From the NCBI GenBank assembly GCA_010093705.1, contig MU006118.1, positions 121,906-185,905 of the forward strand: a stretch of DNA of 64,000 nucleotides, in the 5' to 3' direction. The notes under the pieces were generated by a model. It did no database searches, had not been told where the DNA came from, and saw only the letters and a program-made list of their open reading frames with translations. Positions 18,671 to 50,728 of this stretch are shown in pieces. This stretch comes from Patellaria atrata CBS 101060 (Eukaryota). The stretch's first letter is position 1; the number at the start of each line of letters is the position of its first letter. A program made the position numbers and the translations under genes.

Positions 18671-21318
18671 CTATAGCTTTGGAATCAAAAACTCCTTCGC
18701 CTCCTCCTCACTAACATCTGAAAACTTCCACTGTTTCTTGTCTACTAGACCCAACCTATTCGCTCTTATCTTCCACCACACATCCTTCCTATTCCCTCCC
18801 AGCTCTCCACCGAGCACTTTCTCCTTAAGTTGGCGTAGGACATCATTATACACCACCGGCTCTTCTGAATCAACCATCTCGTTCCTTAGCACACTCAAAG
18901 CTTCAATGGCACGACCGTACCCGCTATCCCCTACGCTGTGGCGGATGTAGTCTTGGATGATCTTCGACATCTGCTTCGCTGCGTCCTTGAGGTCGGATGA
19001 GGAAGTCGTGGAAGCGAGGTACTGCTTGAACTCGGGGATTGCGTTCTCGGGAGAAATCTTACTGCGTTTGTTGCTGTTGAGGAGGGCATCGACATCGAGA
19101 CCTGATAAAGGACGTTCAGTTTCCCGGTTGCGTTTGCGACCTTTGACCTTTGGTGGAACTTTCTTGACGTCCGCAGCTTTGAGAAGGGTCGAGATAACTG
19201 ACTGTGCGTCTTCTATGAGTTCTGTAGGAGGGCCTGAGTATTTAGTCAAGATCTCACCGGGAGGTGGGATATCCTCTGCTGGGTGTACTGCTCGCCAGCG
19301 GATGGCTTGGTTTATGCGATGGAGAACGGGGGAGTAGGTATCTTCGAGAGCAGCATACTCCACGGGATTACTGGTACTTGTCAGTCAATAAAAAGGTAGT
19401 CAGAGTGACACGTACCCATCCTCATCCTTTTCATAAGTGGATAAATCCATACGATCAACATAATCGCTCATTGCTTTCATCAGATCATCATCGGGGAGGT
19501 TCCGATGTTTATAGTGCGTAGCTCCACCCACAGTCACCACTTTATCAAGTGGAGGGAATCTATAGCCACGCATATCCTCTGAAAATGGAAGCTCCACATC
19601 GAATAGACCTTCAAACTCCGGTTCAATGCAGTGTGCTAGCAGCACAATGACCGGGTCTCTCCCGGCTTTCGGAACGAGCCTAGCGATCGCGTACGTTTCT
19701 TGTTCAAACAAGGCGTGAGCCAAGGAAGAGAGTGCCATTGCAGCCTTTTCATTTGCCTTTTGAGCTACGATAATGGACACTTTTGACATGAGCATATAAC
19801 GGTCGAACTACTTTTTCCGTTAGCATAAGGATACTAGGAATAAAGCCGCTCTTTGACACAGATGTACCTTGTCGCGAGGAATGAAGCCCATGATATCAAG
19901 ACAAGCTTGTGTCTCAATTTTCAATGCCGACATATCTGACCCACTGATATGTACCGCAGTAGATCCATAAGAGTACCCCTTTTCAAGCTCGTTTTCAGTA
20001 ACCTCTTTCTTTCCTCCTGGGGCCTTCTCGTCGTTGACTTGATAAGTGCGTGCTCTATGAATAGCTGCGAGCTCGTTCTTCTGTCCGTCTTCGTCATCAT
20101 TACCATCCTGCATCGTAACGGATGATTGACCACTTGGCTCTCCGCCTGGGGCATCAGATTTGATGACGAATGAACTAGCTGTAGGAGGTTTCGCTACTGC
20201 AGTTTTCGGGTACCTCTCTACATCTATTGACAATGCGGATTCGTATTCTTCAGGATTACCAAGAGTGAGATTGCCTTTGAATGACTGAACAGGTCTGGTT
20301 GGTTTTACACGGGGAATTGCAAGCTCAGCGACAGCCTCTGCAACGGTTCCAAAGTCGCCATCACATTCTTCCACAAGATCTTTAAGGAGCTTTTCATTTT
20401 CGAGCTGCGAATATATTTAGTATGAATATGCCATTAGTTGTTAACCAGCATTGAAATGCTCACCTTTTCAGGATCTTTATTTTCTTCCTTGAAACCAAAC
20501 TCTGGATCATCAAAATCGATTCCCCTGAGAAAGTTAGGATAATAGAGCATATTGTAATCCTGAATCCCATATGTACTTACAGTATCTGAAGCCTCATATC
20601 ATCTTCTTTGATTTTAGCCACAATCCCCTCAAGACCATCAGGATCCATTTGACCACGACCGTTTGTTATCAAAACAATCTGCCTGCGGTACTTGAGTTTG
20701 CGACATTGCTCATTGATCATTTGAATTGCAATGATCAGTGCAGATATTGCTATTCAAGATCAGCATCAATAGTTTCCTGAACGATAGGAGCTGAAATACC
20801 ATCTCCCTCTTCCGTTTTGCTAGGTCTAATCAGATCTTTTAATCTACGGATATCTGGCATCAGAAACCTTGAATGTAAGTATTATATCATACGGAAATTA
20901 TTGGCCATTGCTCTTACTGGCCCAAGGGTGCGAGGACAGATATATTTTGGTAATTATCATCGTCCTCGCCATTGAGGGCATTATTAGTGCCTATTAGAGA
21001 TCAATATCAAACCCGCTTCTAGTTTATCATTTGACTAACCGTCTGTCCGCAATGCAACAACACCAACTAATAGCGTTTTCCGTCCGGTTGAGACCTTTTC
21101 ACCATCGTCATCATCTTCATCATCGTAATGCACCTTTTCAACGCGTAAAACAGAAAGAAAACAACGCAAAAGAGTTGGGACTAACCTACCGTCGTTGCGA
21201 TTCTATCCCAGATATAGTGCATCGCCCAGTCGAGATCTGTTTCTGAGCGATCGTTGTTCTTCTCTCCCATGGACTTGCCTACATCAATGATGTAGACTGT
21301 CGCCTCTTTGTCCGCCAT
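18671..21318 (-). CDS. KU80: Ku80, ATP-dependent DNA helicase II subunit 2 (NHEJ), multi-exon
   Basis: vWA start [18 protein letters not shown], then [30 protein letters not shown] and C-terminal [12 protein letters not shown]. Confidence 0.97.
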
Positions 21319-22075: not shown

Positions 22076-23160
22076 ATGGTTTCGAGGTCTTTCACGCTTG
22101 TGGCGGGAGCAACTGTGCTCAATGGAGTGGTGGCAAGCTTATATGGAGAGAGTCCGCTCAACCACACATGTATATTAGGTATTACAATTCCCTTCCCTTT
22201 CCCTTCAGACGTCCTTCTTCACCTTCTCCCTTTCTCCTCACCCCCATCCGTACTCCGGTCCTCACCAATGTCCACGGCCCAGACTAAGTCCATCTAGAAA
22301 AGCCTCTTCTATCTTGTCCTCCTACAAATATCTCCACCGTCGACTCTTGCTGTAGTGAAGCATTTGGAGGCCTCCTTCTCGCCACTCAGTTTTGGGACAC
22401 CTATACTGGTCTCGAAGCGCAAGGCCAGTTGCTCCCGAAGAAGACATGGACACTCCACGGCTTGTGGCCCGATTTCTGCAATGGAAGCTACACACAGTAC
22501 TGTGATCTGGGCCGACAGTATGACCCGGATCCAAGCCCCAATACGACAACCGGGACACCATCGGGGACACCGGTCATTCCCTATACAGGCCCGGATATCG
22601 GAACCTTCGTCGAGGATGCGGGGAGAGCTGATTTGAAAGGATGGATGAATAAATACTGGATTGCCCAGAACCAACCCAACCCGGATTTCTGGGGCCACGA
22701 GTTCTCGAAGCACGCGACTTGTTTTTCGACCTTCGATGTTCCGTGCTATGGGCCTCATTACCGCAAGCATGAAGATGTGATCGACTTTTTTGAGACGACT
22801 ATAATGTATTACCTGCGCCTCCCTACATACAAATGGCTCACCTCTTCCCATATCGTTCCATCCAATTCCACAACCTATTCCGTCTCACGCATCCAAAACG
22901 CGTTGAAAAAGAAATACGGGCATCTACCGTATGTTGGTTGTAGTGGAGCTAGATGGAACGAAACGGAGCAGGGACGGGGAAGTATGGATAATGGCCGCAC
23001 TATTCTCTCAGAGGTGTGGTATTACTTCCATGTTCTTGGGCGGCCTCAGGATGGGAGGTGGAGGGGAATTGATGCGACGGGGAGTGGGACGAGTTGTGCG
23101 AAGGCGGACGGCGCAGTCAAATACCTGAAAAGAACACTAGGGTCGGAATTCGAGAACTGA
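22076..23160 (+). CDS. secreted ribonuclease T2 (2 exons)
   Basis: Signal peptide, CAS I WTLHGLWPD and CAS II FWGHEFSKHATC. Confidence 0.95.
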
Positions 23161-24616: not shown

Positions 24617-25513
24617 TTTCGACGCAGTTTTCTTGATAAAACCGGGAGAAGATTCTTCTTATACAGAAGTCTTGATGTAAGATCCTAAGTCGCGAAACAG
24701 TTGGTATACAGAGCGGAGATATCTGAAGATACTGTAGTTTGGTTTGGTACGATGGAAGTTGGGACGATTGGGTCAAGTAAGGTAGGTAAAAGGTATCGTA
24801 TGTAACCTTAACTCTATCGTCCCGAGTCGCATGCGCTGGAGAAAAATCTTTTCATCTCAACTTTGCTCTTTTGCTACCACTTTTACAGGACCTCAGTCGT
24901 TTCTGGTGCTATAACATCGACTCCGATTTTGATGTTTCGAGATGAGGAGGAATAATTTTCATCGGTCGAAATGCAACGCACATGAGATTATTACATTAGG
25001 TTATTAGGTACCTTATTGATTACCTATTACACTGATTTTCTGCCAAGTTGAGCTAAACTCCTTAAACTCCCTAGAACTTACACGGCAGCCACGACTACTA
25101 GGTTGCTCCTTCCAACCCCCAAAAGCGCCCAGCCCTGGAAGCCCTGGAGCCATTCGATGCCTGCCATGTTCGTTGCCAGCGCCCGAATCTTCTTCCGATC
25201 GCACTCGCAACTCTCTTTTCCACGATTCCTCACTCACACTCCTCTGCCGCCTACACCTCCATCCTTCTCGTCTTACATATCTAAATCAACTCTCTATCCC
25301 GACATTCTCGATCCAGTACTGTTCTACCATTCCATCTGTACTTATTGATCCGTATATTATCGAGTCCTCGGTCACCTTACCTCACCAAGGGCCTCTCACA
25401 CCGCTTGGCTCGCTCTGTCGCACCACGACCAGAGCTGTTCACGCCGTATAAAGGCCACACTTGGCCAGTATGAGGAGGATAGTAACGATAATACTCTTGT
25501 CAGCTCCAACGTG

Positions 25514-28500
25514 ATGACAAGTAATGGTGTAAATGGCACTACAGAGCCTCTGGAGCGGAATGGCTCACCTGCTGTTCGTCCCAAGTCACCTCCAATCCAG
25601 AGCCCTGCTGCGAACCCATCGCTGGTGCCGCCTAAATCGTCTCCTACTCTAGAAGGTAAGGATCTGGGTGTAAGGTCTCCTCTCGCCAATGGAGACCGAC
25701 CCGACTCGTCTGGTACCGATCGTGACGCTCCGAACGATTCCGAGGCGGAGACTGTTGTGCTGAACGGCGAGGAATCGCCTCACAAAAAGCAAGGAAAAGC
25801 CGTGAAACACGAGCGCGACGATGAAGATGAGGATCTCGCAAGGCGCAAGAAGATGGCTAAGTCGGAACCTGCCTCGTCTTCAAAGCACTCAGAACCAGAG
25901 AGGAGACGATCCACAGAACCTGAAAAACCTTCTTCAAAGCCTCGTCTAGCATCTGAGAAGAGCGATGCTAAGAGGAACGGGTTGTCACGGTCCGAAAATA
26001 GCGGTAACCGTCAATCAGAACCTGTCGCTGCCCGTACGTCGAAAGCACAGTCATGGAAAGGTGCAGAACCTGCGTCAAACGAACAATTGCATTCCCCTAA
26101 GACAGAACCACCCAACTCCCCAGGATCACGCACAAAGCTCCAAGAGAGGAGCTCCTCTACTGTGGAGACCAAGAAACGAAAGATCCGCGAGGAGCATCAT
26201 CTCAAAAATATTGAGCCTCCACGCCAACGGCATCGCAGTGATGGTCCTGGGAAAGATTCAGCGGTTCATAGTCTGCGAAATCAACCTACCTCTCCTCCCA
26301 CTCCGAATGGTAGACCCCATCGTAGGTCACTCTCTACTCAAACCGTCCAGCAGCCCTTGGCGCAGACACGGAAGAGGAGAGACGTGGCAAACCTCAATAT
26401 TCATGATCACGACAGATACTCTGACTCGTCCTCCGAGACCTCTTCATCGCCTAGACCGCAACACCAAGCTGTACCTCGTCTTAAGCGTTCTTCACATCGA
26501 GCGTTGACATCACCCGTACGTGGGATGCCTCCGAAAAAGAACATTGATAGGTTTGGCGCTACAAGACTGGCAAGAGACTGCGAAAAGGGTGATCTTGAAC
26601 TGGTTAAGCAGGATTTTGAGTTGGCTCCAGAAGAGCTCGATCAGGTCGACTTCGCTGGAATTGCCCCTCTACAGAAAGCAGCGTTGAATGGTCATGCTGA
26701 TGTGGTGGAGTTTTTGATCAAGAAGGGTTGTAGAACTGATTGTATGTCTAGTGATCACGACACACCACTTATTGATGCTACTGAGAATGGCCATGTCGAT
26801 GTTGTTCGTCTTTTGTTGGAGGTTGGACATGTTAATCCTCATCATCAGAATCGTAAAGGTCAGAGAGCTCTAGATGCTATTGATGAGGATAATGAGGAGA
26901 CGGCCGAAGAACTCAAAGCTCTCCTCAACGAGTACATGCTTAAGGAACCCCTTGAAGAGAACGACAGTGCTAAGTCGACAACCCTTGCACAAGCTATGCA
27001 GAGCGAATCCGCTTCCAATCTTTTGTACAACGAATACAATGTGGAGACTTTGAGGGACAAAGCGGCAGAGGGCGATGTTGGAGCTGTAGCGCAATTGATC
27101 AGTGCGGACATCAAGCCGAACAATGCTTGTGGTATCGCTGCTTCTCGAGGAGGGCATGATGATGTCTTAAGTCTACTCTTAGCAGTCGGGCTTAAAGCTG
27201 ACCCTGACCCTGCAAAACACTCTGAGACGCCGATGACTGTTGCTATCGGCAGAGGGCATCTCAAAGTCATCACACTACTTCTGGACCAAGATAATTTCGA
27301 CCCCACCCGTCGAAATAGGGAAGGTAAGACGTATTGGGAGCTCTCTGAAGAACGACGTGGGCCTCGTTGGCAGCAGGAACGGGAATTGTTAAAGTTACGG
27401 TACGATTCGCACAAGACACAAAGAAGTCCGAATAGTAGAAGGAGACAGGCAGGTCAAGCCGCAAGTTCCAGCAAGCATCTCAAAAGGGAACAGGAAGCGC
27501 CTTCCCGTATGACGAAAGTCAAGACCGAAAGTTTAGAGAACGGAAAATCTTCTGTCCCAAAGGCTGCGGAACAGGTACCCCACAAAGCAAGAGGTCGTTT
27601 AATATCCGGAAAAGAATTATCAAGAGAAAGAGAAAAGCAACGACGGCGACGGCGTGTTGCTGAAGACTCATCTGATAGTGAAGTTGAGGAGACAAAGTCA
27701 GAGCCTCGGAGAACTGCTAGCGGCTCATCAGGGAAGTCGAGCAATATGTCTCCAGAAAGCAAATCATCTCCAGTAAAGCCTCTATCTCCTGCAGAGTCCA
27801 AGGAAGACGATGATATTATGGAAGACGACCCTCCACTCTCTTCAAAACGTTCAGGCGTGCCATTGGAGAAAGAGTCGAAAAGACATCAAGCGCAGCCACC
27901 GGTCACAAACAGTCCCGAACCGGTTGCAGTAGGGCCCTCTGCAGAGGAGAGACGAAAAGCCGAGATAATCGCGGAAAAAGAGAAGGAGAAGGCTGAGAAG
28001 GCGGAGCTTGAAGCAAGGATCAAGTCGGAACAAGAAGCAAGGCTTAAGGTCGAACAAGAAGCTAGGGATAAGGCAGAACTAGAAGCCAAGAAAAAGGCTG
28101 AAGAAGAAGCAGCAGCAGAACAAGCAAGGCTAATACAAGAGAAGAAAGCCAGAGAAGAGGAGGAAGAGCGGATAAAGCAAGAGAAAGAACAGCAGGAGCA
28201 AGCACGTAAGCAACAGGAAGAAGAGTACGCCCGGCAGAAAGCGGAACAAGCTCGCCGTGAAGAAGAGGAAGCACGAGCAGCTGCAGAACAAGCTAAACTT
28301 GAATCAGAACGTCAAGAACGTGAACGGATGGAGCGAGTAAAAAGACTAGAAGCGCTTCCTCGTGCTCTCAAGCGCGCTTTGAAATTGGGTCCTAATCGAC
28401 CTCTTCACTTTCGAGGCAATGAGATGGGAATATCGGTCAATTTCCTGCCTGTCCATACGGTATCGCTCTCTGATATTGATCCAAATTGCGATCCAGCCAC

Positions 28501-28924
28501 CAAGAATGAAGCATGGATGCTCAATTTCCAAGCCGTCGGCATCCTTGGTCTTCCCGAACTAGCTCTTTCGGAATATCCCGACTGGAAGCGGAGGGACACG
28601 ACAATGCGGCACCGAGAGCGGTTTCTAGAGTCATACGACCTCGCACAACTAGCTCAAGATGTCAGGTTCCCGGTTGAGGGCACGAAAGAATTCAACCTCG
28701 GTGAGATCATGAACATCATGAAAGAGACGAGGGAGAAGTTTCTGAGCATGGAACCGCTCTTTTGGGTCAGATTCGACGATTTCGAAAAAGTTGTACCGCA
28801 TTATAACCACTTGGATGGATTGAATAGCAATATACCCACCGTTACGTGTCATGTGGATGAGGTTTCGCCTGTTGGCTGCGAAAGCTTCCTAGATGTCGTG
28901 CTAGGGAAGGCTGTAAAGACTTGA
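25514..28924 (+). CDS. ankyrin-repeat protein with coiled coil, Hos4-like (Set3 HDAC complex)
   Basis: Single ~1136-aa ORF with ankyrin repeats (IAPLQKAALNGH, DTPLIDATENGH, ETPMTVAIGRGH), a disordered N-terminus and an E/R/A-rich coiled coil. The Hos4 assignment is by architecture only. Confidence 0.85.
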   Translation: MTSNGVNGTTEPLERNGSPAVRPKSPPIQSPAANPSLVPPKSSPTLEGKDLGVRSPLANGDRPDSSGTDRDAPNDSEAETVVLNGEESPHKKQGKAVKHERDDEDEDLARRKKMAKSEPASSSKHSEPERRRSTEPEKPSSKPRLASEKSDAKRNGLSRSENSGNRQSEPVAARTSKAQSWKGAEPASNEQLHSPKTEPPNSPGSRTKLQERSSSTVETKKRKIREEHHLKNIEPPRQRHRSDGPGKDSAVHSLRNQPTSPPTPNGRPHRRSLSTQTVQQPLAQTRKRRDVANLNIHDHDRYSDSSSETSSSPRPQHQAVPRLKRSSHRALTSPVRGMPPKKNIDRFGATRLARDCEKGDLELVKQDFELAPEELDQVDFAGIAPLQKAALNGHADVVEFLIKKGCRTDCMSSDHDTPLIDATENGHVDVVRLLLEVGHVNPHHQNRKGQRALDAIDEDNEETAEELKALLNEYMLKEPLEENDSAKSTTLAQAMQSESASNLLYNEYNVETLRDKAAEGDVGAVAQLISADIKPNNACGIAASRGGHDDVLSLLLAVGLKADPDPAKHSETPMTVAIGRGHLKVITLLLDQDNFDPTRRNREGKTYWELSEERRGPRWQQERELLKLRYDSHKTQRSPNSRRRQAGQAASSSKHLKREQEAPSRMTKVKTESLENGKSSVPKAAEQVPHKARGRLISGKELSREREKQRRRRRVAEDSSDSEVEETKSEPRRTASGSSGKSSNMSPESKSSPVKPLSPAESKEDDDIMEDDPPLSSKRSGVPLEKESKRHQAQPPVTNSPEPVAVGPSAEERRKAEIIAEKEKEKAEKAELEARIKSEQEARLKVEQEARDKAELEAKKKAEEEAAAEQARLIQEKKAREEEEERIKQEKEQQEQARKQQEEEYARQKAEQARREEEEARAAAEQAKLESERQERERMERVKRLEALPRALKRALKLGPNRPLHFRGNEMGISVNFLPVHTVSLSDIDPNCDPATKNEAWMLNFQAVGILGLPELALSEYPDWKRRDTTMRHRERFLESYDLAQLAQDVRFPVEGTKEFNLGEIMNIMKETREKFLSMEPLFWVRFDDFEKVVPHYNHLDGLNSNIPTVTCHVDEVSPVGCESFLDVVLGKAVKT

Positions 28925-34306: not shown

Positions 34307-34556
34307 GGCAGGTACAGCCGTACAGCCGGATATATATATATATATTTCCTGTTTTATACATTTATATGGTACTGAGAGTACTTTAAAGTGCGGTATTATC
34401 AGCTAAGTGCAGTCATTAAACCTGAAATTAATTATCTTATCATGATCAGAGAGGTCTTAATGTAATGGAAGATAAGGTATCATCAAGGCGTTATAAAAAG
34501 ACAACCACATGCTCTGACTAAGCAGAAACCCCTTTTCCCAATCTCAACTCAAAGAA

Positions 34557-36490
34557 CTAAGGCTGAGCCCTTTTCAACACCTTGTCCACCATGAAGGCAC
34601 TGTAACCCAAATAACGGAGGGGATCGCACAACTTCTCGAGTTCTTCTCGCTTCATTTCCTTACTAACCTCTTCATGTTCACAGAGCAGCTCAATCAACGG
34701 CCTATTCTCCAGAGTAGCCTTTCGACAGACCTCGTAGATCACCTCGTGAGCATACTGTCTTCCTATTATTTTACCCAGTTTCATCATCACCGCTTCGCTA
34801 ACTATACGACCTCTCGTAATGGCCAGATTCGCTTTCATTCTGTCTTCATCTACCTCAAGGCCCTCGATGAGTCCTTTTGTCATCTTCAGAATATCGCATG
34901 TGAGTGTGGATATCTGTGGCAATACAATCCCTTCGATTTCACGCGAACTTGAATCTCGCTCGTGGTCCGCAATCATCGCATCGAAGAGATTAGCGCTGAG
35001 GTGTCTAACAGTGGACGCCATGGCAGTAATATGCGTACAACTGATGGGATTCATCATGTGCGGCATGGTTGTGGACGACCCCCGCTGTGAAACATACGGC
35101 TCACTGACTTCTCCCACTTCCGTCTGCATCATGGATTTAACGTCGAGTGCAAATTTGGAGCATGTAGATGTGAGTTGCGCACAGAGCGATCCAAATTCGG
35201 CAATGGAGTCTCGCTCGGTATGCCATGCTATATCTGGTACGGAAAGCCCAAGCTCTTCTGCTAATAGCCTTTGGCAATCCATTCCTAGCTCAGGGTCTTC
35301 AGGGGTTAATAGCAATGTGGCAAGAGTGCCAGCAGCACCAGAGAATTCGAGCACAAGCAGTCTTGGACAAAGATCATCCAGTCGATCCTGGTGTCGCTGG
35401 AATGTTGCCAGAATACGAGCAAGCTTAAACCCGAAGGAAATTGGGACCGCTTGCTGGAGGTTCGAACGAGCTGGCAAAGGAGTCGTTTTGTACCTTTTAC
35501 ACAATTCTTGAAGATTGGCCATGATATTATCCAGCTCAAATTGGATTATCTCGAGCGTATCTCGAAGCTGAAGAACAGTTGCAGTATCTGTCACGTCTTG
35601 GGTTGAGGCACCCCAATGAGCCCATTCCCCCAACGCAGCACGAGGTTTGACAGAATTGACCTCTTTCACTAATCATTATTTGTGAGCATTACTCTAACGC
35701 CGGATCTCCTAATCAATCACGAACCGATATGTTGGACCACTCCTACAACTGAAAAGCCGGTAAGTTCTGTTGATTCTTTTAGAGTGGCGTACGGTATGCT
35801 CCCAAATCTGTTCCCGAAAATCCCACCCCCATTTGGCGCGCAGAATTTAGCAATCTCGTCAGCCGCTTGCTGTGGTATGATACCAAGTTTGGCTTGCACT
35901 TTAGCGAGTGCCATTTCAAACTTCAGATAGTAATTTACCCTCGTCGTCTCGCCCCAAATTAAACCGGTGGAGGAGAAATGGCCCCCAAAGCCTCTGGAGG
36001 CGGTGTTTCCAAAAAGGCCAGAAGAAGTCTTCCTAGTCCTAGAGGTGCTCCCGAACGTACCAGAGGAAGCATTCCCGAAAAGTCCGGAGGAAGTATTCTC
36101 AGAAGTTCCAGTGGAAGTGTTCCCGAAAAGCCCGGACGAAGGGTTCGAGGAGGCGCTGCCGAAAAGTCCCGAGGAAGTGTTCCCGGCAGCACCGAAAAGG
36201 CTGGGAGGGTTTCCAGAAGCACCAGAGGTGTTTCCAAACAGGCCCGAGGAAGTGTTCCCGGCAGTACCGAAAAGGCTAGGAGGGTTTCCAGAAGCACCAG
36301 AGGTGTTTCCGAACAGGCCAGAGGAACCTGAAGTGTTTCCGGCAGTCCTCGAGGGAAGATTACCGAAAAAGCCCAAGGAAGTCTTCTCGGTATTCTTTGA
36401 TGAGGTGTTCCCGAAAACCCCTGATGTTCCAGAGGAAGTGTTCCCGGGTGCACCGGACGAACTATTTCCAAAACCTTCAGAAGAGGACAT
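34557..36490 (-). CDS. FG/GLFG-repeat N-terminus fused to a fumarate-lyase superfamily (3-carboxy-cis,cis-muconate cycloisomerase/adenylosuccinate lyase-like) domain (2 exons)
   Basis: Lyase motifs FEMALAKVQAKLGIIP, HWGASTQDVTDTA, ARSNLQQAVPISFG, GAAGTLA, WHTERD, QTEVGEVSEP and signature GSSTTMPHMMNP. About 13 FG motifs lie in the first ~170 aa, in the same frame. One intron at about 35670-35724. Confidence 0.9.
36171..36320. repeat. 75-bp tandem duplication inside the FG-repeat exon
   Basis: Copies 36171-36245 and 36246-36320 differ at 4 positions. Confidence 0.95.
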
Positions 36491-37496
36491 AACTTATCAA
36501 TTGTTGAAAATGACCTTGTTGGAATCAATATTGGGGTGGGATGTCATCTAGTTATACACTCAATACCCCGGTTGCGCCCCTTCATCGGTAAGCCGAGTGG
36601 CTTTCTATTCCGTGCGCGATAGGGTAAGGAAGCGCCCGTGGTGGGGCGTCGTCTCGTTCTGCATCGAAATCCATCGTAACGGAACTTTTATTTTCAAATG
36701 ATACACGGCAAAAGGTAATATGAGATCGTTATAGACAACTTTACTGCACAGTCACCTTAATAAGGTACAGTATACACTTCCCATGTTAGGCACACTCCTA
36801 TTTCTAAAGCCCCACAGCGAACCACAGGTACATATTGTACACTACGCGAAGATACTCGAATACTAGCAAGTCCCATTTTCACCACGTAAGGTATATAACT
36901 TCTCGATTCTCATTCACTGCTATTTCCAGTCTTATCTCATCAATCTGGAGAAAGGAGCGTTGTGTACCTTACCTTATACTTCTTTCCCCACCTCTCCCCC
37001 AACCTCCTGACCCTTTAGCATTGTTTCCCCTTTCCCTCAAAGTTTAGAGTACGCTTCCTCTTCCCCTCCGTTGTCACTTTCCTAGTCTACTTTTTGCGAT
37101 ATCCTTTCCTATTGCGCACCGACACGAAGCCGGCATGATCCATACATACTCTTATGGTTGTAGTGATGGAAGGATTGATCCTTGTTTCCATCTCAACCGT
37201 ACCGTACTGTCTTGATTCGCCTGTTGAATGATGCGAGAGTTCCGGAAAGGATCGTATGTCAGGCGGTAATCAGCAGATGCCTCAGTATATCATAGAGCAA
37301 CTGTTTCAATGTTGGGAAATAACTGTACGAGGAATCCTACCAAATTCACCCCTGCTTCAACAGCTCAGGCCCTGTGAAGGGAAGTCTATAAGTACTGCAT
37401 GCCCCAGCGCTTGAAAACAAGCAGAAGAGAATTGATCAAGTTTTGTCATTCCTCGAAGGTATTCTCCGAAAAGGACAACTTCGATTACTCAGCACC

Positions 37497-39559: not shown

Positions 39560-42500
39560 TCACTGCTCAAGCTGTTCCAATTCCCTCCTACACCCCGCAC
39601 AATAAGTGTTGTACCACTCTTCCACCTTTTCTAGACTTTCACCCCCCGCTCGTATCTCCCCCTGGCTATCCCATCCCAGCGCTCGTCCCATCTGTCTACA
39701 CCTCACGTTCTCAGCCACAAGCCAATTCTCCCACTCTGCCTGCAGCGTCTCCTTTTCGATAGCGTTGACCATACGCATTGCAACTAAGAGGTTGTGTCGG
39801 TAGGCGGCTAGATGCTCGCGTGTGCGTTGTAAACGTTTTGCTGTGTATTTGGCCCCTATATCTGCGAAGGGGAAGTGGGTGATATTGGTAAGGCCAGGGG
39901 AAGTGTAGACATATAGTTCGCGAAAGCTGGTCCGACATTGTGTTTGATCGAGAGATTCTAGGTCGGAAGAGGCCGTTGCGTTGGTCAGTATTTCGTCGAT
40001 GTCATGTATATAGATGGCTTTGCTCATGATGGTATTTGGCTTGACGCCCATGCGAGACATGAAGTTGGCTGCGTTGCGCTCGTGCCACCAATCTAAACTG
40101 TCTCGGGTTGAGGTAAACAAATTAAAACTGGTGCTGAAAATGAGTAACCCGACCAGTATCGAATGCGCCGTGGTGACTTTCGATACGCTGGTAACGACCG
40201 TTACGATTAGAGAGACTATTGAAGAGATGCCGCTGCCGGCAATGGACAAAGACTCTGATATTAGGAGGGAAGCGAGGCTTCTGCTTTCCATTTTGAAGTG
40301 TTTGTTGCCTTTGGACGAAGGAATGTCTGAGGCAGCTACTTCTGCGACGTGGCCTTGGACGCCGACTTGACCGAAAATTTGAATAGCTTTACGGGTACGA
40401 CTATTGCTTCCCAGTCGAACGACTTGATCCGTAATCATTTCTGCGATATCTTTCCCTTGTAGCTGTAGATCATACGCCGCTTCTCGTTCGATAAGACCTG
40501 GTTTTGGGAAAAAAAAAAAAAGTCAATTTATAGTACACAAATATTTAGCTAGAAAACTTACCTTTGAGAATAGGTCCTTCCTTGATCCAGTCAACTCTGA
40601 CATAGATCGCGAGTTTACATCGAGATTTAGCGATATGAGTGATGACAATCTTGCTGACAAGACTGAAATCTGAGGCACTCGGGAGATACCAAGGATATTT
40701 CCTATCCGTGACCACGTAGCACAAATGATCGTTATAGACATCGATCATTTGGTAATCAACGACGTCTTGCCCGAGGTAATTCTGATATTGGAATTCTCTC
40801 CTGTGATGGCCCTTTTCGGGTTGTACCCACGGTCCTTGGACAAATCGTTGAGCGCCCTGTTCGCAATACAAGGTATGGAATACTGCGCTCTTGTCTCCAA
40901 AAAGAATGTGAAAAAGAGCTTTCGCGCTGACATCAAGATCCTTATCTACAACTACTGAAGTCATTCCTTCGGGAGCGTATACAACCGGATGAGCCGGAAG
41001 TCTGAACTTCGTGGCATTTCTGCTAACAATGTGCGCAGGTGTATCAAATAAGTTCCCGTCTATCCGAAGACTAGCTTTGAGGTCTTGACCTCCCCTTCGT
41101 TCGTTCCCATCAATGGGAGTATTGACAGAGACATCTTCCCAGCTTTCCATACTTGGACTATCTGCGTTTTCATCTGCTTCCATCTTGATCAAGGCCTTCA
41201 AGATGTCCTCGATGCTACGAGGAGTCGACGAACGAGAATTGCGCACAAGATAATTGAGACGACGCTGCAGTAACTTGAGCGGTTCAAGAAAAGTCTTGAT
41301 GGTGACACGTGTCGAAACATTCTTCTTGTGTTCTTCGTCAAAGTGAAGAAACAGAAAGTCGCAGTCTTTGCCCGGAGCTGCTGTGACTTCTTCGATATCT
41401 GATAACCGAATGCCTGTAATCAAGACAAGGCCAAGGTGGTTGCTGTAGAAGAAGATCTTGCTGGCAGTAACATAGACTCTACCGGGAAATTCCTGCTGGT
41501 CGTTCGGATTCCATGTGGCCCTAAAAACAAGGAGAAGCTTTTCCTCTCGTGTAACTTCGGGGAACAGCATTCTGAATTGCGCGTCTTGTGCTCTCAGGGG
41601 CAGTGGGTAGTAATTCGGAAAATCATCGGTGACTATAGTGGGTCGTTGAGCTTTAGAGGGATGTGTTCCCAAGCTCATGGTCTTACGATGTGTGGGTGTA
41701 GCAGTATTCTTGACCTGTTTTTCAGGGGGGCCAACGTCACCTTCCACCGGTACGTCGCCCGTACTCTCAATCGGAAGAGAAGCAGGGCTAGGAGGTTGAG
41801 AGATACTCCGTTCATGGATAAATCGAAGTTCACCGCGCTCAATACGGTTGACAGAACCCCAATGTGTCGAACCCCAGAGATTCGCCATAATACCGCTGGG
41901 AACTCCTCCGTTGCCCTGACCAAGCCCAACCCCACGTTCACCGCTCACAACAACAGCAGTTTTGCTTAAATTTGTGGCAGCGGGTGGATTTGCTAGAGTG
42001 GACGGAGCCAGAGTGCTTGTGGGCAAATTCATTGCTGGAGCAAGCTTATCATTGTCTATATTAATTGTAGGCGGAGGAACTGCTGGGCCAACAGGAAGGA
42101 TGTTGTGACTAGCAGAAATGAGACTGGCAATGCCGCCCCCTGAGTTCGACGGAGTACTGGCATGGGCGGTCAGTTGTGGGCCTGCCGTTGACTTCCTGTG
42201 AAGGTCAAGCTTCTGAATAATTCTTGCTGCGTGCTCTCGGGTACTCTCTCCTTCTCTCTCAATCGTAGCACGGCGGTTGGTAACATCAAAGCTAGTTCGA
42301 GCAGCAAGACTTCCCAGCCCTTCACGATCCGTCACAGAAAGTGTTCCTGCTCTTTCAATGGCGTGAACTTCGTCACTACCATGAGGGGCATGACCATCAG
42401 CTGTTCTCGCAGCAAATTCGGGAGCGACGGGTTGAGTAATTGCGAAAGCAGGATCCACTGAAGTTCCCGTTAAAGTAGCATCTGTACTGCCAGGATCTTC

Positions 42501-43798
42501 CAGAGCTTTACGTTTGGCTACTTCAAACGCCGAGATCCATTCCATCAGCTCTGACTGGATTTCGGCTTGAAGAAGTATGGTGGTATCTTTTGTCTTTACT
42601 TCGAAACAGAACCTCCGTTCCTCCTGGAATGCGGGTCGAATGCTGCAAAGAAGCACACCAATCTTTTCCGATTCTTCAACAGCTCCAGACCTTAGACCAT
42701 GAACTAACCATCCAAATATACCATTCTTGACGAAAAACCATCTCCTTACCCACACAGTCCTTGCGGGTTTGCCTGTGATTGTTCTCTGGAACAACCAACC
42801 TTGCTTCTCCGACTTTTCAGTTTGCGTCTTCGCTGGAGTATTCAGATTCGGAGTCGATTGGGCACCGGAGCCAATATATGGAACTGTGGATGCAGCATAG
42901 TCGTCTAATTCTCTGGATGGGCGGACAATTGATTCTGCACTTTCCTCAATTTGCTTTCTTGCTAAATGTAGTTCCCGCTTGAATGTGCGTTCCCCTTCTT
43001 CCATCTCCTTACACCATCCTCGGACACGCTCCATCTCGGTGGAAGCTTTAGAGAAAGATGCAGACGTAGATTCCCGCGCACTCTTGAGGTCCTTCCATTG
43101 ATCCGCAAAGATTTTCACTAGCAGTTTATCAAGAGTCGCCCTGACCTGAGGTGCCATAACTGTGAAGTCCATGGAAGCTTTGAGATAAGACTTTCTCGCC
43201 TCGTGAAGCTGGAAAGCGTCTTCACGTAATGAAGAAGCTTCTTTAGTCTTTGGTTGACCAGAGAAACGGGCTACAACGCCGTCATAGTATTTCTGTGACT
43301 GCTCAAGTGTCTTTCGCGTCTCTCTTAATGCTCTGAGATCATTCATGAGGAACGCTTTTATAGGATCTACGACGGAGGTCTCCACACGGCGCATACCACG
43401 AAAAGTATAAGACCAAAATTCTCTTGCTCCTTCCCCAAAGCGCTTTGTTGCCAGTAGAGTGTAGTCATGGTCTAATACAGCCTCAGAAATTTGCTGTGGT
43501 GGTGTCGATTGGGAGAGGAAGCTGTTCACGAGGGTTTCAAGACCATTAACCTCCGTAGCAAGTTTACTTGCAGCTTTGATATAGTTCTCTAGCCATTTTT
43601 CGATTATATCCACTTGTTCGCTGAAATGAATAGCTGTTGCGCGGAAAGTTGGGCTGTCTAGGGCGGCTTCTTTCAATCCAACAGGGCTACATCCTCATTA
43701 GAGGGAATACTCAAGATATAGGATCTGATGTCTTACATCAAGCTCAGAGGCCTGTCAACAGGTGTGAGGGAGGGTTGCTGAGATTTCGGGTCATCCAT
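39560..43798 (-). CDS. SIP3: Sip3/Ysp1/Lam BAR-PH-GRAM-VASt sterol transfer protein
   Basis: PVGLKEAALDSPTFRA (BAR), KQGWLF..WVRRWFFVKNGIFGWL (PH), QEFPGRVYVT (GRAM), SAKALFHILFGDKS (VASt) and a C-terminal TM segment. Confidence 0.92.
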
Positions 43799-49087: not shown

Positions 49088-50728
49088 TTGTTGAAGGTGA
49101 GAGTGAATGAATGGCGTTTGAGAAGTACGAATGTTTTTACTCCCCTTACTAGCTCTATCAAATATGACTTGTACTGTACTGCAGCTTTTCCAGGGGAAAC
49201 AATACTCCGACATCCAAACTTGTTACACGTTCGTGGGAGAGTACTGTACCTTAATACCTTACCCCTTCCCTTACCCGTACCTTACAGAAGCAAATGAACA
49301 AGTGTGAAGTAAGGTAGGCTGAGAGACGGTGCCCCGCACCATCTACTCTAAGGTTAACCGCGGCCATGAACAAACATTTCTTTTTTTTCTCATCTCTTAG
49401 AAATACCTTAAGCCTCACCACCGAAGTACAGGAGTACGGTACATTCCCATTAGCTGTACAGTTTACGGAAGGATATATCCAGCAGTTGACTGGCTTTCGG
49501 CTGTCTCCACCACCACACGATTGATACCAGTTACGGTGTGCATACTAGCGTACGAGTATCGGATCGGGTAGTTCTAAAGATTATTAGTTTAGATATATCC
49601 ATCCATACCTTACCTTACGGGATACTGGTAGGTAGGTATGGTTTATCTTAGACCCTTCTAGGCAAGCTATGCATGAGACAAAGACGACGGAATTACCACC
49701 ATCTAGGCGCAGATATCTCTGTTTTCTGACTGGCCCGGCTCTCCGTACCCAATCCATTATTCTTGCATACAGGAAGAAAAGAAAAGCCCGCGTGGTCTTT
49801 TGGAGACTCACCCGCATCCACGGTCAGGTTGTGCCGCTAGCACGGGTTGAAAGTTGCAGGTATGCAGTATTCAGCATTGTTTTGCTGTAGTAATGGTATT
49901 ATCATAACTTAGAGGGGTCTATGCAACTGGTCTTACACTGGCTTTTTTTTTGCCCTGCATATTGTATACTTGTCAGCGTCTGTCCCGGGTACATACAGCC
50001 CTTCAGGGGGAACGATATAGGGAGAAGAAGGCTGAATGCAGAACTTGAGGAGTCTCTTTAAAGGGCCGGAACTTCAACATGATCTGTCTCTCCCACGTTG
50101 TCTGTCCCATCGATTCCACGCGACCAAATTCTTGCGGAAAAAGTGTCTTACCATACTCTCAGTACTGTACGAGTAGGGGGATCATCGGATCGGTGAGTGG
50201 TGATCAACCTTTCGGTCTCGTGCCCGGGGGCTTTTGGCAATTGGCATCCACCACCAGAACTCCCTGATTGCGAGCTTGGCTCCGATAAGAGCCGACACCC
50301 ATCCCCCGCCAGCTCATACAAACAATACACAGCTACATCTGCTCGTACCGTCGTCTTAACATTCGCTTTCTTCCCTTTTGCACACATCAATTTCATTCAC
50401 TTCTTCATACTGGTTCATGTAGGAGGTAAGTTCAGACATATCCCCTGCTACATTCGGGTTCTAATCTAGTTCAACTGTGTGCTGATGACATTTCCCCACC
50501 TTAGCAATTCCGCGGCCAGCTAGAGGCCCCCGAGCTGTCTCCGCGATCCGTATACCACTCATAACACGGCTGAAGCTACATTGCTTTCTTCCTCTGTAGC
50601 TCATTGAGCTTTTCGAACACTCAGTTCTGCGTTCAATAGCTTCGCAAATCGATATCTATACTACACCCTGAGCAGACGTCCTGCATACCAACCGCGTCGG
50701 ACGCATTTACCCCTCCGTTGCAGGAAGC

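What the first reader, a model, noticed from the sequence alone, without database searches (positions are those of the whole stretch)
34557..36490. Nucleoporin-like GLFG-repeat domain fused to a fumarate-lyase-family scaffold
Seen: the first exon encodes ~170 aa of Ser/Gly/Asn/Thr-rich, nearly uncharged sequence with about 13 FG motifs (GLFGN x5, GLFGS, SLFG x2, GVFG, GFFG, GTFG, GFG). It runs in frame, with no intron, into the CMLE/ASL helix (IWGETTRVNYYLKFEMALAKVQAKLGIIP), and a further GGGIFGNRFG sits inside the enzyme domain. Known: GLFG repeats typify Nup98/Nup100/Nup116, bind karyopherins and phase-separate, and fumarate-lyase superfamily proteins are homotetramers. Inference: a tetramer displaying four FG tails could act as a nuclear-pore- or karyopherin-interacting or condensate-forming protein built from a metabolic enzyme. 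I do not recognise this architecture as described.
Basis: partly seen in the sequence, partly recalled or inferred. Interest (0 to 1): 0.85.

Follow-up and report, generated by a model that had tools for sequence, protein, structure and literature searches.

The report
Lyase gene with home-grown FG-repeat tail
A wood-rot fungus carries an enzyme gene whose own short N-terminal peptide has been copied over and over into a nuclear-pore-like "FG repeat" tail, an unusual one-off whose expression and function remain untested.

Summary
On the minus strand, a two-exon gene (36490..34557, one 56-nt GT..AG intron) encodes 625 aa. Residues 1-~172 are an S/G/T/N-rich, nearly uncharged tract with 13 FG motifs. 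It runs in frame into a Tad1/CMLE-type class II lyase (best solved match: Ustilago trans-aconitate decarboxylase). The organism is Patellaria atrata CBS 101060. Its public gene model is a 459-aa "partial" protein that omits the tract.

It is not a fusion with a nucleoporin piece. The last FG unit aligns with the family's native N-terminal S-x-[IL]-F-G-N peptide, so the tract looks like an in-frame amplification of that peptide. Repeat copies keep one codon register. They vary about twice as much at third codon positions, which favours translation.

The enzyme core folds confidently but has lost the SS-loop Lys and two Trp that matter in Tad1. It deviates at 20 of 143 near-invariant columns (median 1).

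No other FG-plus-lyase protein turned up in two protein searches or in 68 metagenome loci. No RNA data were available, so nuclear-pore, karyopherin or condensate roles are untested.

Verdict: a real, apparently unique variant of a known enzyme family, of moderate interest.

The parts
34557..36490 (-). Whole gene: two exons and one intron, 625-aa product
   Evidence: Spliced CDS is 1878 nt. The junction HI-V-KEVN matches the public 459-aa model P0003.
35725..36490 (-). Exon 1 (766 nt): Met1, the FG tract, and the first ~85 residues of lyase domain D1
   Evidence: Met occurs only at residues 1 and 193 of the exon-1 product.
35975..36490 (-). FG tract, residues 1-172: 13 FG motifs, S/G/T/N-rich, predicted disordered
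   Evidence: counts and shuffles. (PF13634, E 1.5e-14). (no secondary structure, pLDDT 29-38, single-sequence model). (excess variation at third codon positions in this frame).
36168..36326 (-). 75-bp tandem duplication, 2.1 copies, 95% matches; encodes SSGLFGNTSGASGNPPSLFG[T/A]AGNT twice
   Evidence: Public DNA contigs break here (36206-36310) but flank it without differences.
36063..36146 (-). 24-bp tandem units, 3.5 copies, 72% matches
35996..36028 (-). Last FG unit (residues 155-165, TSSGLFGNTAS); aligns with the family's native N-terminal D-S-x-I-F-G-N-x-x-S-T peptide
   Evidence: S157 and F160 fall in invariant columns. (S-x-x-F-G in 54 of 103 homologs, FGN in 42).
35798..35836 (-). About 10-aa FG-bearing insertion (PNGGGIFGNRFGS) in a D1 loop; shares an exact 12-nt word with two tract units
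   Evidence: gap in all homologs and in Tad1. (3 exact matches in 64 kb, all in this gene; shuffles mean 0.28). (pLDDT below 50 at P0003 residues 60-64).
35669..35724 (-). Intron, 56 nt, GT..AG, with a CTCAC branch-like site
   Evidence: Removing it reproduces P0003.
34557..35668 (-). Exon 2: rest of the lyase (Lyase_1 and ADSL_C domains) plus the stop codon
   Evidence: PF00206 2.7e-32, PF10397 6.6e-21. (Tad1 chains at about E 1e-109).
35049..35081 (-). SS loop, GSSTTMPHMMN (residues 452-462); the conserved Lys is Met and the next Arg is Met
   Evidence: Tad1 SS-loop definition from PMC11880804.
34929..34958 (-). Catalytic-centre segment RDSSSREIEG (residues 493-502). The Arg360 equivalent is kept; T362S, W365R and W369G (Tad1 numbering).

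Best explanation
This is a lineage-specific variant of the fungal Tad1/CMLE2-type class II lyase gene of Patellaria atrata.

Origin of the tract. The family's own short N-terminal peptide (S-x-[IL]-F-G-N-x-x-S-T) was amplified by in-frame tandem duplication of 24- to 75-bp units. The result is a ~170-residue, uncharged, disordered tract with 13 FG motifs. It resembles a GLFG nucleoporin domain by convergence, not by descent. One unit was also copied into a surface loop of domain 1.

Translation. The tract is most likely translated whenever the gene is expressed. Met1 is the only AUG that gives a complete enzyme domain.

Enzyme core. It keeps its fold, the two SS-loop serines and the catalytic Arg. 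It has lost the SS-loop Lys and the Thr/Trp/Trp that move on substrate binding in Tad1. It therefore probably no longer performs the ancestral reaction, or performs it poorly.

Inferred, not shown. The product would be a tetramer carrying four cohesive FG tails (about 52 FG motifs). Its most likely physical behaviour is multivalent self-association and affinity for other FG phases and transport receptors. Whether the cell uses that behaviour is unknown.
For: Architecture. ORF, splice and motif counts. Pfam hits PF13634, PF00206 and PF10397.

Family. Tad1 chains at E about 1e-123 by sequence. Foldseek TM 0.87/0.92 to 9h3i. AF2 mean pLDDT 85.7, pTM 0.87.

Origin from the native peptide.
- MAFFT places the last unit on the homologs' N-terminal motif, with S157 and F160 invariant.
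- 54 of 103 full-length homologs have S-x-x-F-G there. The homologs have 14-82 residues (median 21) and 0-2 FG before the first helix; the window has 177 residues and 13 FG.
- The FG-part database hits that carry an organism name are from distant taxa (Theileria, Anaeromyces); most have none.

Coding constraint.
- All DNA-defined repeat copies share one codon register, and all their spacings are multiples of 3.
- Third-position diversity is 0.53-0.56, against 0.14-0.31 at positions 1 and 2 (Mann-Whitney p 0.0003-0.004).
- pN/pS among 12 units is 0.37 in the FG frame, and 0.56-1.75 in the other five frames.
- Met occurs only at residues 1 and 193, and no consensus intron can remove the tract alone.

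Not plain decay. The enzyme-part ORF stayed open in 2 of 400 neutral simulations at 20% amino-acid divergence and in 0 of 400 at 30%. The excess branch length is about 0.24 substitutions per site.

Active-site remodelling.
- The protein deviates at 20 of 143 columns that are at least 97% conserved. The median is 1. The only higher value, 25, belongs to P0081, whose first ~115 residues look mis-modelled.
- The changes include Q297H, K298M, R299M, Y306H, T333S, G334S, P335S, W336R and W340G (P0003 numbering).
- In Tad1, S320A and R360A abolish activity, S321A leaves 3%, and T362, W365 and W369 mutants lose much activity (PMC11880804, passages read).

Uniqueness..
Against: - No transcript or peptide evidence exists. 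The only runs found were DNA.
- The public annotation models the gene without the tract, and as partial at both ends.
- The third-position signal is shared in part by one antisense frame (pN/pS 0.56). The three repeat families tested overlap, so their p-values are not independent.
- The units were chosen by their FG motif, which biases that test. Searches were run to avoid this.
- The overall rate acceleration is only moderate. Root-to-tip distance ranks 12 of 104. Two relatives with similar branch lengths keep their active sites.
- The native-peptide origin rests on a short motif. I could not search the P. atrata genome for a nucleoporin source.
- About a third of the GN-type units lack F, by my reading of the translation, so selection on FG itself is not shown.
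- The uniqueness claim is limited: gene models often drop such tracts, and the DNA-level check covered mostly bacterial-like loci.
Confidence: 0.6

Rival explanations
1. A gene on its way out. Constraint on the enzyme was relaxed, its active site is eroding, and a slippage-prone minisatellite in the 5' coding region expanded neutrally. Because the unit length is a multiple of three, the frame stayed open by accident. The nucleoporin look is only a by-product of amplifying a unit that contains F-G-N. The protein has no new function and may not be made.
For: - Loss of the SS-loop Lys and two Trp; 20 of 143 near-invariant columns changed.
- An extra insertion in D1.
- The public model is partial and lacks the tract.
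- The repeat DNA is open in four of six frames.
- The gene sits among unrelated housekeeping genes, not in a pathway cluster.
- It is a singleton in the databases.
Against: - The 625-codon ORF and its intron signals are intact.
- Neutral simulations almost never keep the enzyme ORF open at the observed excess divergence: 2 of 400 at 20%, 0 of 400 at 30%.
- Repeat copies differ mainly at third codon positions in the FG frame, and every copy spacing, including the irregular ones (36, 42, 54, 105, 195), is a multiple of 3.
- The core folds with pLDDT 85.7.
- No second, canonical Patellaria copy appeared among the best 120 hits of a canonical Dothideomycete query. This weakens the 'redundant duplicate' version of this rival. 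It is weak evidence, because only annotated proteins are searched.
Confidence: 0.25
2. One reading: the tetramer with four GLFG-like tails is a working nuclear-pore- or karyopherin-interacting, or condensate-forming, protein that the cell uses (a moonlighting or recruited enzyme scaffold).
For: - The tract passes the Pfam FG-nucleoporin threshold. It is uncharged, with mean FG spacing of about 13 residues.
- A 52 x 12-mer GLFG domain is reported to phase-separate at micromolar concentration and to admit transport receptors (PMC8245513, abstract and passages read).
- The active site is remodelled while the ORF is kept, as expected if the scaffold rather than the chemistry is under selection.
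- Tad1 is a homotetramer (PMC11880804).
Against: - There is no anchoring domain, GLEBS or autoproteolytic domain.
- The tract has 13 FG motifs in about 170 residues. As recalled, not checked in any call, bona fide GLFG domains are several-fold larger.
- No ortholog carries the tract, so there is no evidence of conservation.
- Expression is unknown.
- Selection on the FG motifs themselves is not shown.
Confidence: 0.1
3. The tract is not part of the protein. Transcription or translation starts downstream (a non-AUG start or an unrecognised splice), and the public 5'-partial model is nearer the truth.
For: - The public model begins at residue 163 and has no Met.
- Openness of this low-complexity DNA is uninformative.
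- No RNA data exist.
Against: - There is no AUG between residue 1 and residue 193, and residue 193 lies inside the conserved first helix.
- No GT..AG candidate with donor and branch consensus removes the tract without also removing D1 helices.
- A stop lies two codons upstream of Met1, so Met1 opens the frame.
- The first residues after Met1 again resemble the native start (M-S-S-S-E-G-F-G-N against M-T-S-V-Q-D-S-L-I-F-G-N).
- Codon-position pattern in the tract.
Confidence: 0.1

Closest known systems
Ustilago maydis trans-aconitate decarboxylase Tad1 (PDB 9H3I, 9H4E, 9H4G, 9H4H)
   Same: Best solved relative. Sequence E about 1e-123 over residues 16-458 of the public model. Foldseek TM 0.87/0.92 at 43-47% identity. 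Same three-domain helical lyase fold. The SS-loop serines and the Arg360 equivalent are kept.
   Different: The window protein has K327M, N328M, T362S, W365R and W369G (Tad1 numbering), a 10-aa FG-bearing insert in D1, and a ~170-aa FG tract in place of Tad1's ~50 N-terminal residues that precede D1. It does not lie in an itaconate cluster.
Fungal '3-carboxy-cis,cis-muconate cycloisomerase / CMLE2 / L-aspartase-like' proteins (about 455-470 aa; Chaetothyriales, Coniosporium, Cryomyces and others)
   Same: Nearest sequence relatives, 57-69% identical over exon 2. Same domain pair. The same native N-terminal S-x-I-F-G-N motif, which I take to be the seed of the tract.
   Different: None of 103 full-length relatives has more than 2 FG or more than 82 residues before the first helix. 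All those inspected keep GSSSTMPQKRNP and HERSTGPWEIEW.
GLFG nucleoporins (Nup98 / Nup100 / Nup116 / Nup145N type)
   Same: GLFG and related FG motifs separated by uncharged S/T/N/G-rich spacers. PF13634 hit above the cut-off. The top non-self hits of the tract carry PF13634, and most also carry PF04096.
   Different: No PF04096 autoproteolytic or NPC-binding domain and no GLEBS. The tract is much shorter. It appears to derive from the enzyme's own N-terminus. NPC localisation is untested.
Delta-crystallin (argininosuccinate lyase recruited as a lens structural protein)
   Same: It belongs to the same superfamily (delta-crystallin chains appear; the Tad1 paper lists it as a member). It is a precedent for a fumarate-lyase-fold tetramer used for something other than catalysis. 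That delta-1 crystallin is enzymatically inactive is recalled, not checked here.
   Different: Delta-crystallin has no repeat tail. Its recruitment works through expression level, not through an added low-complexity domain.
Engineered perfectly repeated GLFG domain (prf.GLFG52x12; PMC8245513)
   Same: It shows that simple GLFG 12-mers with uncharged spacers are enough for a cohesive, receptor-permeable phase (abstract and passages read). Four tails of 13 FG on a tetramer would present a similar number of motifs per particle.
   Different: It is a designed single chain of 52 repeats. Here the valency would come from an oligomer that has not been shown. The units are irregular, and about a third lack Phe (my reading of the translation).

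Membership tests
Aspartase/fumarase (fumarate lyase) superfamily, Tad1/class II CMLE branch | Lyase_1 (PF00206) plus ADSL_C (PF10397) domains | tested here: met
   E 2.7e-32 and 6.6e-21, both above the curated cut-offs; best NCBIfam hit is NF006554, E 4e-108 at 362 bits, which is below that model's 595-bit equivalog cut-off.
Aspartase/fumarase (fumarate lyase) superfamily, Tad1/class II CMLE branch | Three-domain, mainly helical fold | tested here: met
   AF2 pLDDT 85.7, pTM 0.87. Foldseek top hits are Tad1 9h3i (TM 0.87/0.92), then 3c8t, 1re5, 1q5n and CreD.
Aspartase/fumarase (fumarate lyase) superfamily, Tad1/class II CMLE branch | SS-loop signature GSSxxPxKxN (as given in PMC11880804) | tested here: not met
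   The window has GSSTTMPHMMN. Both serines are kept but the Lys is Met. The Lys is at least 97% conserved among 103 homologs.
Aspartase/fumarase (fumarate lyase) superfamily, Tad1/class II CMLE branch | Catalytic Arg (Tad1 R360) and the mobile Thr362/Trp365/Trp369 | tested here: inconclusive
   The Arg is kept. T362S, W365R and W369G. Tad1 mutants at these positions lose much activity.
Aspartase/fumarase (fumarate lyase) superfamily, Tad1/class II CMLE branch | Homotetramer with shared active sites, and catalytic activity | not testable with these tools
   A tetramer of 4 x 459 residues exceeds the complex tool's size limit.
GLFG-type FG nucleoporins | FG-repeat region of low charge with GLFG motifs | tested here: met
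   PF13634, 55.1 bits against a cut-off of 32.2; 13 FG motifs and 10 of 175 residues charged.
GLFG-type FG nucleoporins | NPC-anchoring part (autoproteolytic Nucleoporin2 domain PF04096, GLEBS or other scaffold-binding region) | tested here: not met
   no such family at E up to 0.01 in either exon product. The tract leads straight into the lyase.
GLFG-type FG nucleoporins | Common descent with nucleoporin FG domains | tested here: inconclusive
   The last unit aligns with the lyase family's native N-terminal motif. Named database hits of the tract are from distant taxa. The P. atrata genome could not be searched for its own nucleoporin genes.
GLFG-type FG nucleoporins | Location at the nuclear pore and binding of transport receptors | not testable with these tools
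   Needs microscopy and binding assays.

The most novel reading that the evidence does not exclude
A cohesive FG-repeat domain was born de novo from an enzyme's own N-terminal peptide. The cell now uses it: a tetrameric ex-lyase with about 52 GLFG-type motifs enters or seeds FG phases (the nuclear pore barrier, or cytoplasmic FG bodies) or soaks up transport receptors. That would be a natural non-nucleoporin FG particle and a snapshot of how FG domains can arise.
Probability: 0.1. Interest if true: 0.8.

Novelty: new variant of a known kind. Interest (0 to 1): 0.42.

Why it matters
If the tract is translated, this is a datable example of a nucleoporin-like FG domain arising from a few codons of an unrelated protein by in-frame repeat amplification. 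It sits on an oligomeric scaffold whose active site is being remodelled at the same time.

That bears on two questions: how FG domains originate, and how many FG motifs on what valency are enough for pore or condensate behaviour. It would also give a small natural test object for those questions.

If the gene is silent or decaying, it is only a curiosity of repeat instability, plus a reminder that homology-based gene models drop such tracts.

Tried and rejected
- RNA evidence. The run search listed no RNA holder. The two runs that hold the stretch behave as DNA. Their contigs cover the gene with no differences and break only at the 75-bp repeat. This says nothing about expression.
- Own genome. 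None is held. I therefore could not search P. atrata for a canonical paralog at DNA level, or for its nucleoporin genes.
- Canonical paralog at protein level. A search with a canonical Dothideomycete homolog (P0097) listed no second Patellaria protein among its best 120. This is suggestive only.
- ESM Atlas with the tract. No usable hit.
- Earlier findings of this scan. Nothing by place, sequence or words.
- Metagenome loci. 80 loci were fetched. Most are 47-52% identical in one uninterrupted block, so they are probably bacterial; three (L001, L003, L059) are 56-61%. Of the 68 loci with at least 300 nt upstream, none has more than 4 FG in any stop-free upstream segment. This is a weak control for tracts missed by annotation in fungi.
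- Intron that would remove the tract. The only in-frame GT..AG candidates (donor at +430, acceptors at +742 or +748) would also delete the conserved D1 helices. Rejected.
- Strong rate acceleration. The long terminal branch (0.458 against a median of 0.10) is largely due to sparse sampling. Root-to-tip distance ranks only 12 of 104. I rest the argument on the deviations at conserved columns instead.
- Apparent sister P0081. Its first ~115 residues look like a mis-modelled N-terminus, and it keeps the canonical loops. It is not an ortholog with the same changes.
- Pathway context. The neighbours are a Ku80-like gene, RNase T2, an ankyrin protein, a PX-associated protein, a BAR-PH-GRAM-VASt protein, and Whi5-like, BTB and F-box/LRR genes. 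There is no aromatic-catabolism or itaconate cluster.
- Complex prediction. Not run: a tetramer exceeds the size limit and no eukaryotic karyopherin reference is offered.
Full report
**What is there**

The finding's coordinates hold a minus-strand gene. The ATG is at 36490, and a TAA lies two codons upstream in frame. Exon 1 runs to 35725. A 56-nt GT..AG intron occupies 35724-35669. Exon 2 ends with the stop at 34557. The spliced CDS is 1878 nt, or 625 residues.

Composition is S 44, G 37, T 22, N 17 and F 15, with only 10 charged residues. Ten thousand shuffles of the same residues gave a mean of 3.2 FG and never more than 10. Pfam's Nucleoporin_FG model matches at E 1.5e-14, above its cut-off. 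Exon 2 carries Lyase_1 and ADSL_C.

The tract continues without stop or intron into the conserved first helix of the lyase. An extra FG-bearing stretch sits inside domain 1.

**Whose gene, and how it is annotated**

The exon-2 product is 100% identical to a 459-aa NCBI protein, [quoted passage not shown]. That model starts at residue 163 without a Met, ends four residues short of the stop, and uses the same splice. The public annotation therefore omits the tract.

Two DNA runs of what appears to be the same organism cover the locus without a single difference. Their contigs break only inside the 75-bp tandem repeat, as expected for short-word assembly. I see no sign of misassembly. No RNA run was on offer.

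**What family the enzyme part belongs to**

- The best solved relatives are the Ustilago maydis trans-aconitate decarboxylase Tad1 chains (E about 1e-123). [quoted passage not shown]
- An AlphaFold model built with 67 homologs has mean pLDDT 85.7 and pTM 0.87. Foldseek puts Tad1 first, with TM 0.87/0.92.
- The nearest sequences are fungal proteins of about 455-470 aa from Chaetothyriales and rock-inhabiting fungi. They are only 57-69% identical.
- The neighbours in the window are unrelated housekeeping genes, so there is no pathway cluster.

**Where the FG tract came from**

The canonical relatives begin M-T-S-V-Q-D-S-L-I-F-G-N-I-L-S-T, followed about ten residues later by I-W-S-D. MAFFT aligns the last unit of the tract (T-S-S-G-L-F-G-N-T-A-S) onto that native peptide, and the Ser and Phe fall in invariant columns.

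I compared 103 full-length homologs, taken from the 119 other proteins listed; the 16 shorter than 440 aa were dropped. Of these, 54 have S-x-x-F-G at this place (F-G-N in 42). They have a median of 21 and at most 82 residues before the first helix. They carry 0 FG (45 homologs), 1 FG (57) or 2 FG (1) there. The window protein has 177 residues and 13 FG. The residues right after Met1 (M-S-S-S-E-G-F-G-N) again resemble the native start.

At DNA level the tract is built of degenerate 24-nt units, plus a 75-bp duplication at 95% identity.

This fits compositional convergence.

My reading is that the tract grew by in-frame amplification of the enzyme's own N-terminal peptide, not by fusion to a nucleoporin fragment. 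I put this at about 0.7. The motif is short, and I could not search the P. atrata genome for a possible nucleoporin donor.

The 10-residue insert in domain 1 shares an exact 12-nt word with two tract units. That word occurs three times in the 64-kb window, all in this gene, against 0.28 expected. The insert looks like an ectopic copy of a unit. It falls in a loop with pLDDT below 50.

**Is the tract coding?**

Openness is not evidence here, because the repeat is open in four of six frames. Better evidence comes from several directions.

1. Register and spacing. All copies in each of three DNA-defined repeat families share one codon register. All copy spacings, including the irregular ones (36, 42, 54, 105, 195), are multiples of three.
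2. Codon positions. In those families, diversity at the third codon position of the FG frame is 0.53-0.56, against 0.14-0.31 at positions 1 and 2 (Mann-Whitney p 0.0003-0.004). The families overlap, so these are not independent tests.
3. pN/pS. Among 12 FG-centred units, pN/pS is 0.37 in the FG frame. It is 1.1 and 1.75 in the other sense frames, and 1.0, 1.5 and 0.56 in the antisense frames. Those units were picked by their FG, which biases the test. Leaving out the F and G codons still gives more variation at third positions (p 0.012).
4. Start codon. Met occurs only at residues 1 and 193, and residue 193 lies inside the conserved helix. Met1 is therefore the only AUG that yields a whole domain 1.
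5. Splicing. No candidate intron with donor and branch consensus removes the tract alone.

The one antisense frame that shares third positions (pN/pS 0.56) has no ATG start and no partner domain. I take the FG frame as translated with probability about 0.75, given that the gene is expressed at all.

**State of the enzyme**

The window protein deviates at 20 of 143 alignment columns that are at least 97% conserved among the other 103 sequences. The median deviation is 1. The only higher value belongs to P0081, whose first ~115 residues look mis-modelled and which keeps the canonical loops.

The changes cluster in two functional segments:
- The SS loop reads G-S-S-T-T-M-P-H-M-M-N instead of G-S-S-S-T-M-P-Q-K-R-N.
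- The catalytic-centre segment reads H-E-R-D-S-S-S-R-E-I-E-G instead of H-E-R-S-T-G-P-W-E-I-E-W.

In Tad1, the paper I read in passages (PMC11880804) defines the SS loop as GSSxxPxKxN. It reports that S320A and R360A abolish activity, that S321A leaves 3%, and that T362, W365 and W369 mutants lose much activity.

Here the two Ser and the Arg are kept, but the Lys, the Thr (now Ser) and both Trp are gone. I infer that the ancestral reaction is lost or much weakened, or that specificity has changed.

The overall rate is only moderately raised. Root-to-tip distance is 0.70 against a median of 0.47, rank 12 of 104. Within its 48-tip clade it is 0.55 against 0.31. Two relatives with similar branch lengths keep their active sites. 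The point is therefore where the changes fall, not how many there are.

**Decay or new role?**

If the excess divergence (about 0.24 substitutions per site) had accumulated neutrally, the enzyme ORF should be broken. In simulations it stayed open in 37 of 400 runs at 10% amino-acid divergence, 2 of 400 at 20% and 0 of 400 at 30%. The fold is predicted with confidence.

A search with a canonical Dothideomycete homolog listed no second Patellaria protein among its best 120. This may be the only family member in the annotated proteome.

I therefore favour a translated protein under some selection (0.6) over a decaying gene (0.25). Without RNA, peptides or a second Patellaria genome, this is inference.

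**How it would work**

- Shown: the sequence features above.
- Established elsewhere: Tad1 and its superfamily are homotetramers. Simple GLFG repeats with uncharged spacers are reported to form cohesive phases at micromolar concentration and to admit transport receptors (PMC8245513, abstract and passages read).
- Inferred: the product would be a tetramer with four disordered tails, about 52 FG motifs per particle, with mean FG spacing of about 13 residues. It would be prone to self-association and to partitioning into FG phases.

A single-sequence AlphaFold run gives no secondary structure and pLDDT 29-38 for residues 1-180. This is weak evidence for disorder, because single-sequence models are poor in general.

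Nothing here shows nuclear-pore localisation or karyopherin binding. No anchoring domain is present. I give a cell-used pore, karyopherin or condensate role about 0.1.

**Is it known, and is it unique?**

- No protein combining PF13634 and PF00206 appeared among 10 hits of the exon-1 product against proteins longer than 450 aa. One hit was the gene's own partial model and nine were nucleoporin-like.
- The exhaustive HMMER search of 1.84 billion representatives gave 113 hits. Thirteen match only the tract. One hundred match the lyase N-terminus, reaching back into the tract end in four. I inspected nine of those hundred, including the four whose match began before residue 160. They have 0-1 FG and leader-like N-termini.
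- Among the best 120 homologs of exon 2, the longest is 524 aa.
- A full-text search listed no paper holding "FG repeat" together with any of the lyase terms among the 10 shown of 38. A search for the species listed nothing about this gene among the 10 shown of 26.

Caveat: annotation pipelines drop such tracts, as happened here. My DNA-level control covered mostly bacterial-like loci: of 68 loci with enough upstream DNA, the most FG in any open upstream segment was 4.

**Verdict**

This is a real, apparently unique variant of a known enzyme family. The nucleoporin likeness is genuine at the level of sequence physics, but it is most likely home-grown. The functional reading is open. Interest is moderate.

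Noticed in passing
window 35959-36551, both strands: The repeat DNA is open in four of six frames. One of these is a + strand frame that encodes P-E-E-V-F-P-type repeats (194 aa, GTG start). It shares third codon positions with the FG frame and shows pN/pS 0.56.
   Followed up: partly
window 36206-36310: Public short-read contigs of the same organism break at the 75-bp tandem duplication. A 32-nt piece shared by both copies has about 1.6-fold depth, which fits two copies. Copy number was not verified by a spanning read.
   Followed up: partly
homologs P0004, P0046, P0052, P0055, P0079, P0082 and fragments: Several family members carry 25-80-residue Arg/Ser/Leu-rich N-terminal leaders that look like mitochondrial presequences, while most begin directly at M-T-S-V-Q-D-S. 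The family's location may differ between lineages.
   Followed up: no
P0081: The first ~115 residues of this public model do not match the family and look like a mis-predicted exon or frame. This creates a false long branch next to the window protein in the tree.
   Followed up: partly
loci L002-L080: Many metagenome contigs encode uninterrupted relatives, 47-52% identical, that share the fungal-type SS-loop word S-S-S-T-M-P-Q-K. The fungal clade may have close bacterial relatives.
   Followed up: no
window 34330-34347: An (AT)n microsatellite lies in the 430-nt spacer between the lyase stop (34557) and the start (34125) of the next minus-strand gene, a PX-associated (PXB/DUF3818) protein.
   Followed up: no
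window 18671-20416 (-), 22288-23160 (+), 25349-28924 (+), 39560-43694 (-), 50672-52843 (+): The neighbouring genes are ordinary: Ku80-like, RNase T2, an ankyrin/KRIT1-like protein with DUF7593, a BAR-PH-GRAM-VASt lipid-transfer protein, and an F-box/LRR protein.
   Followed up: partly
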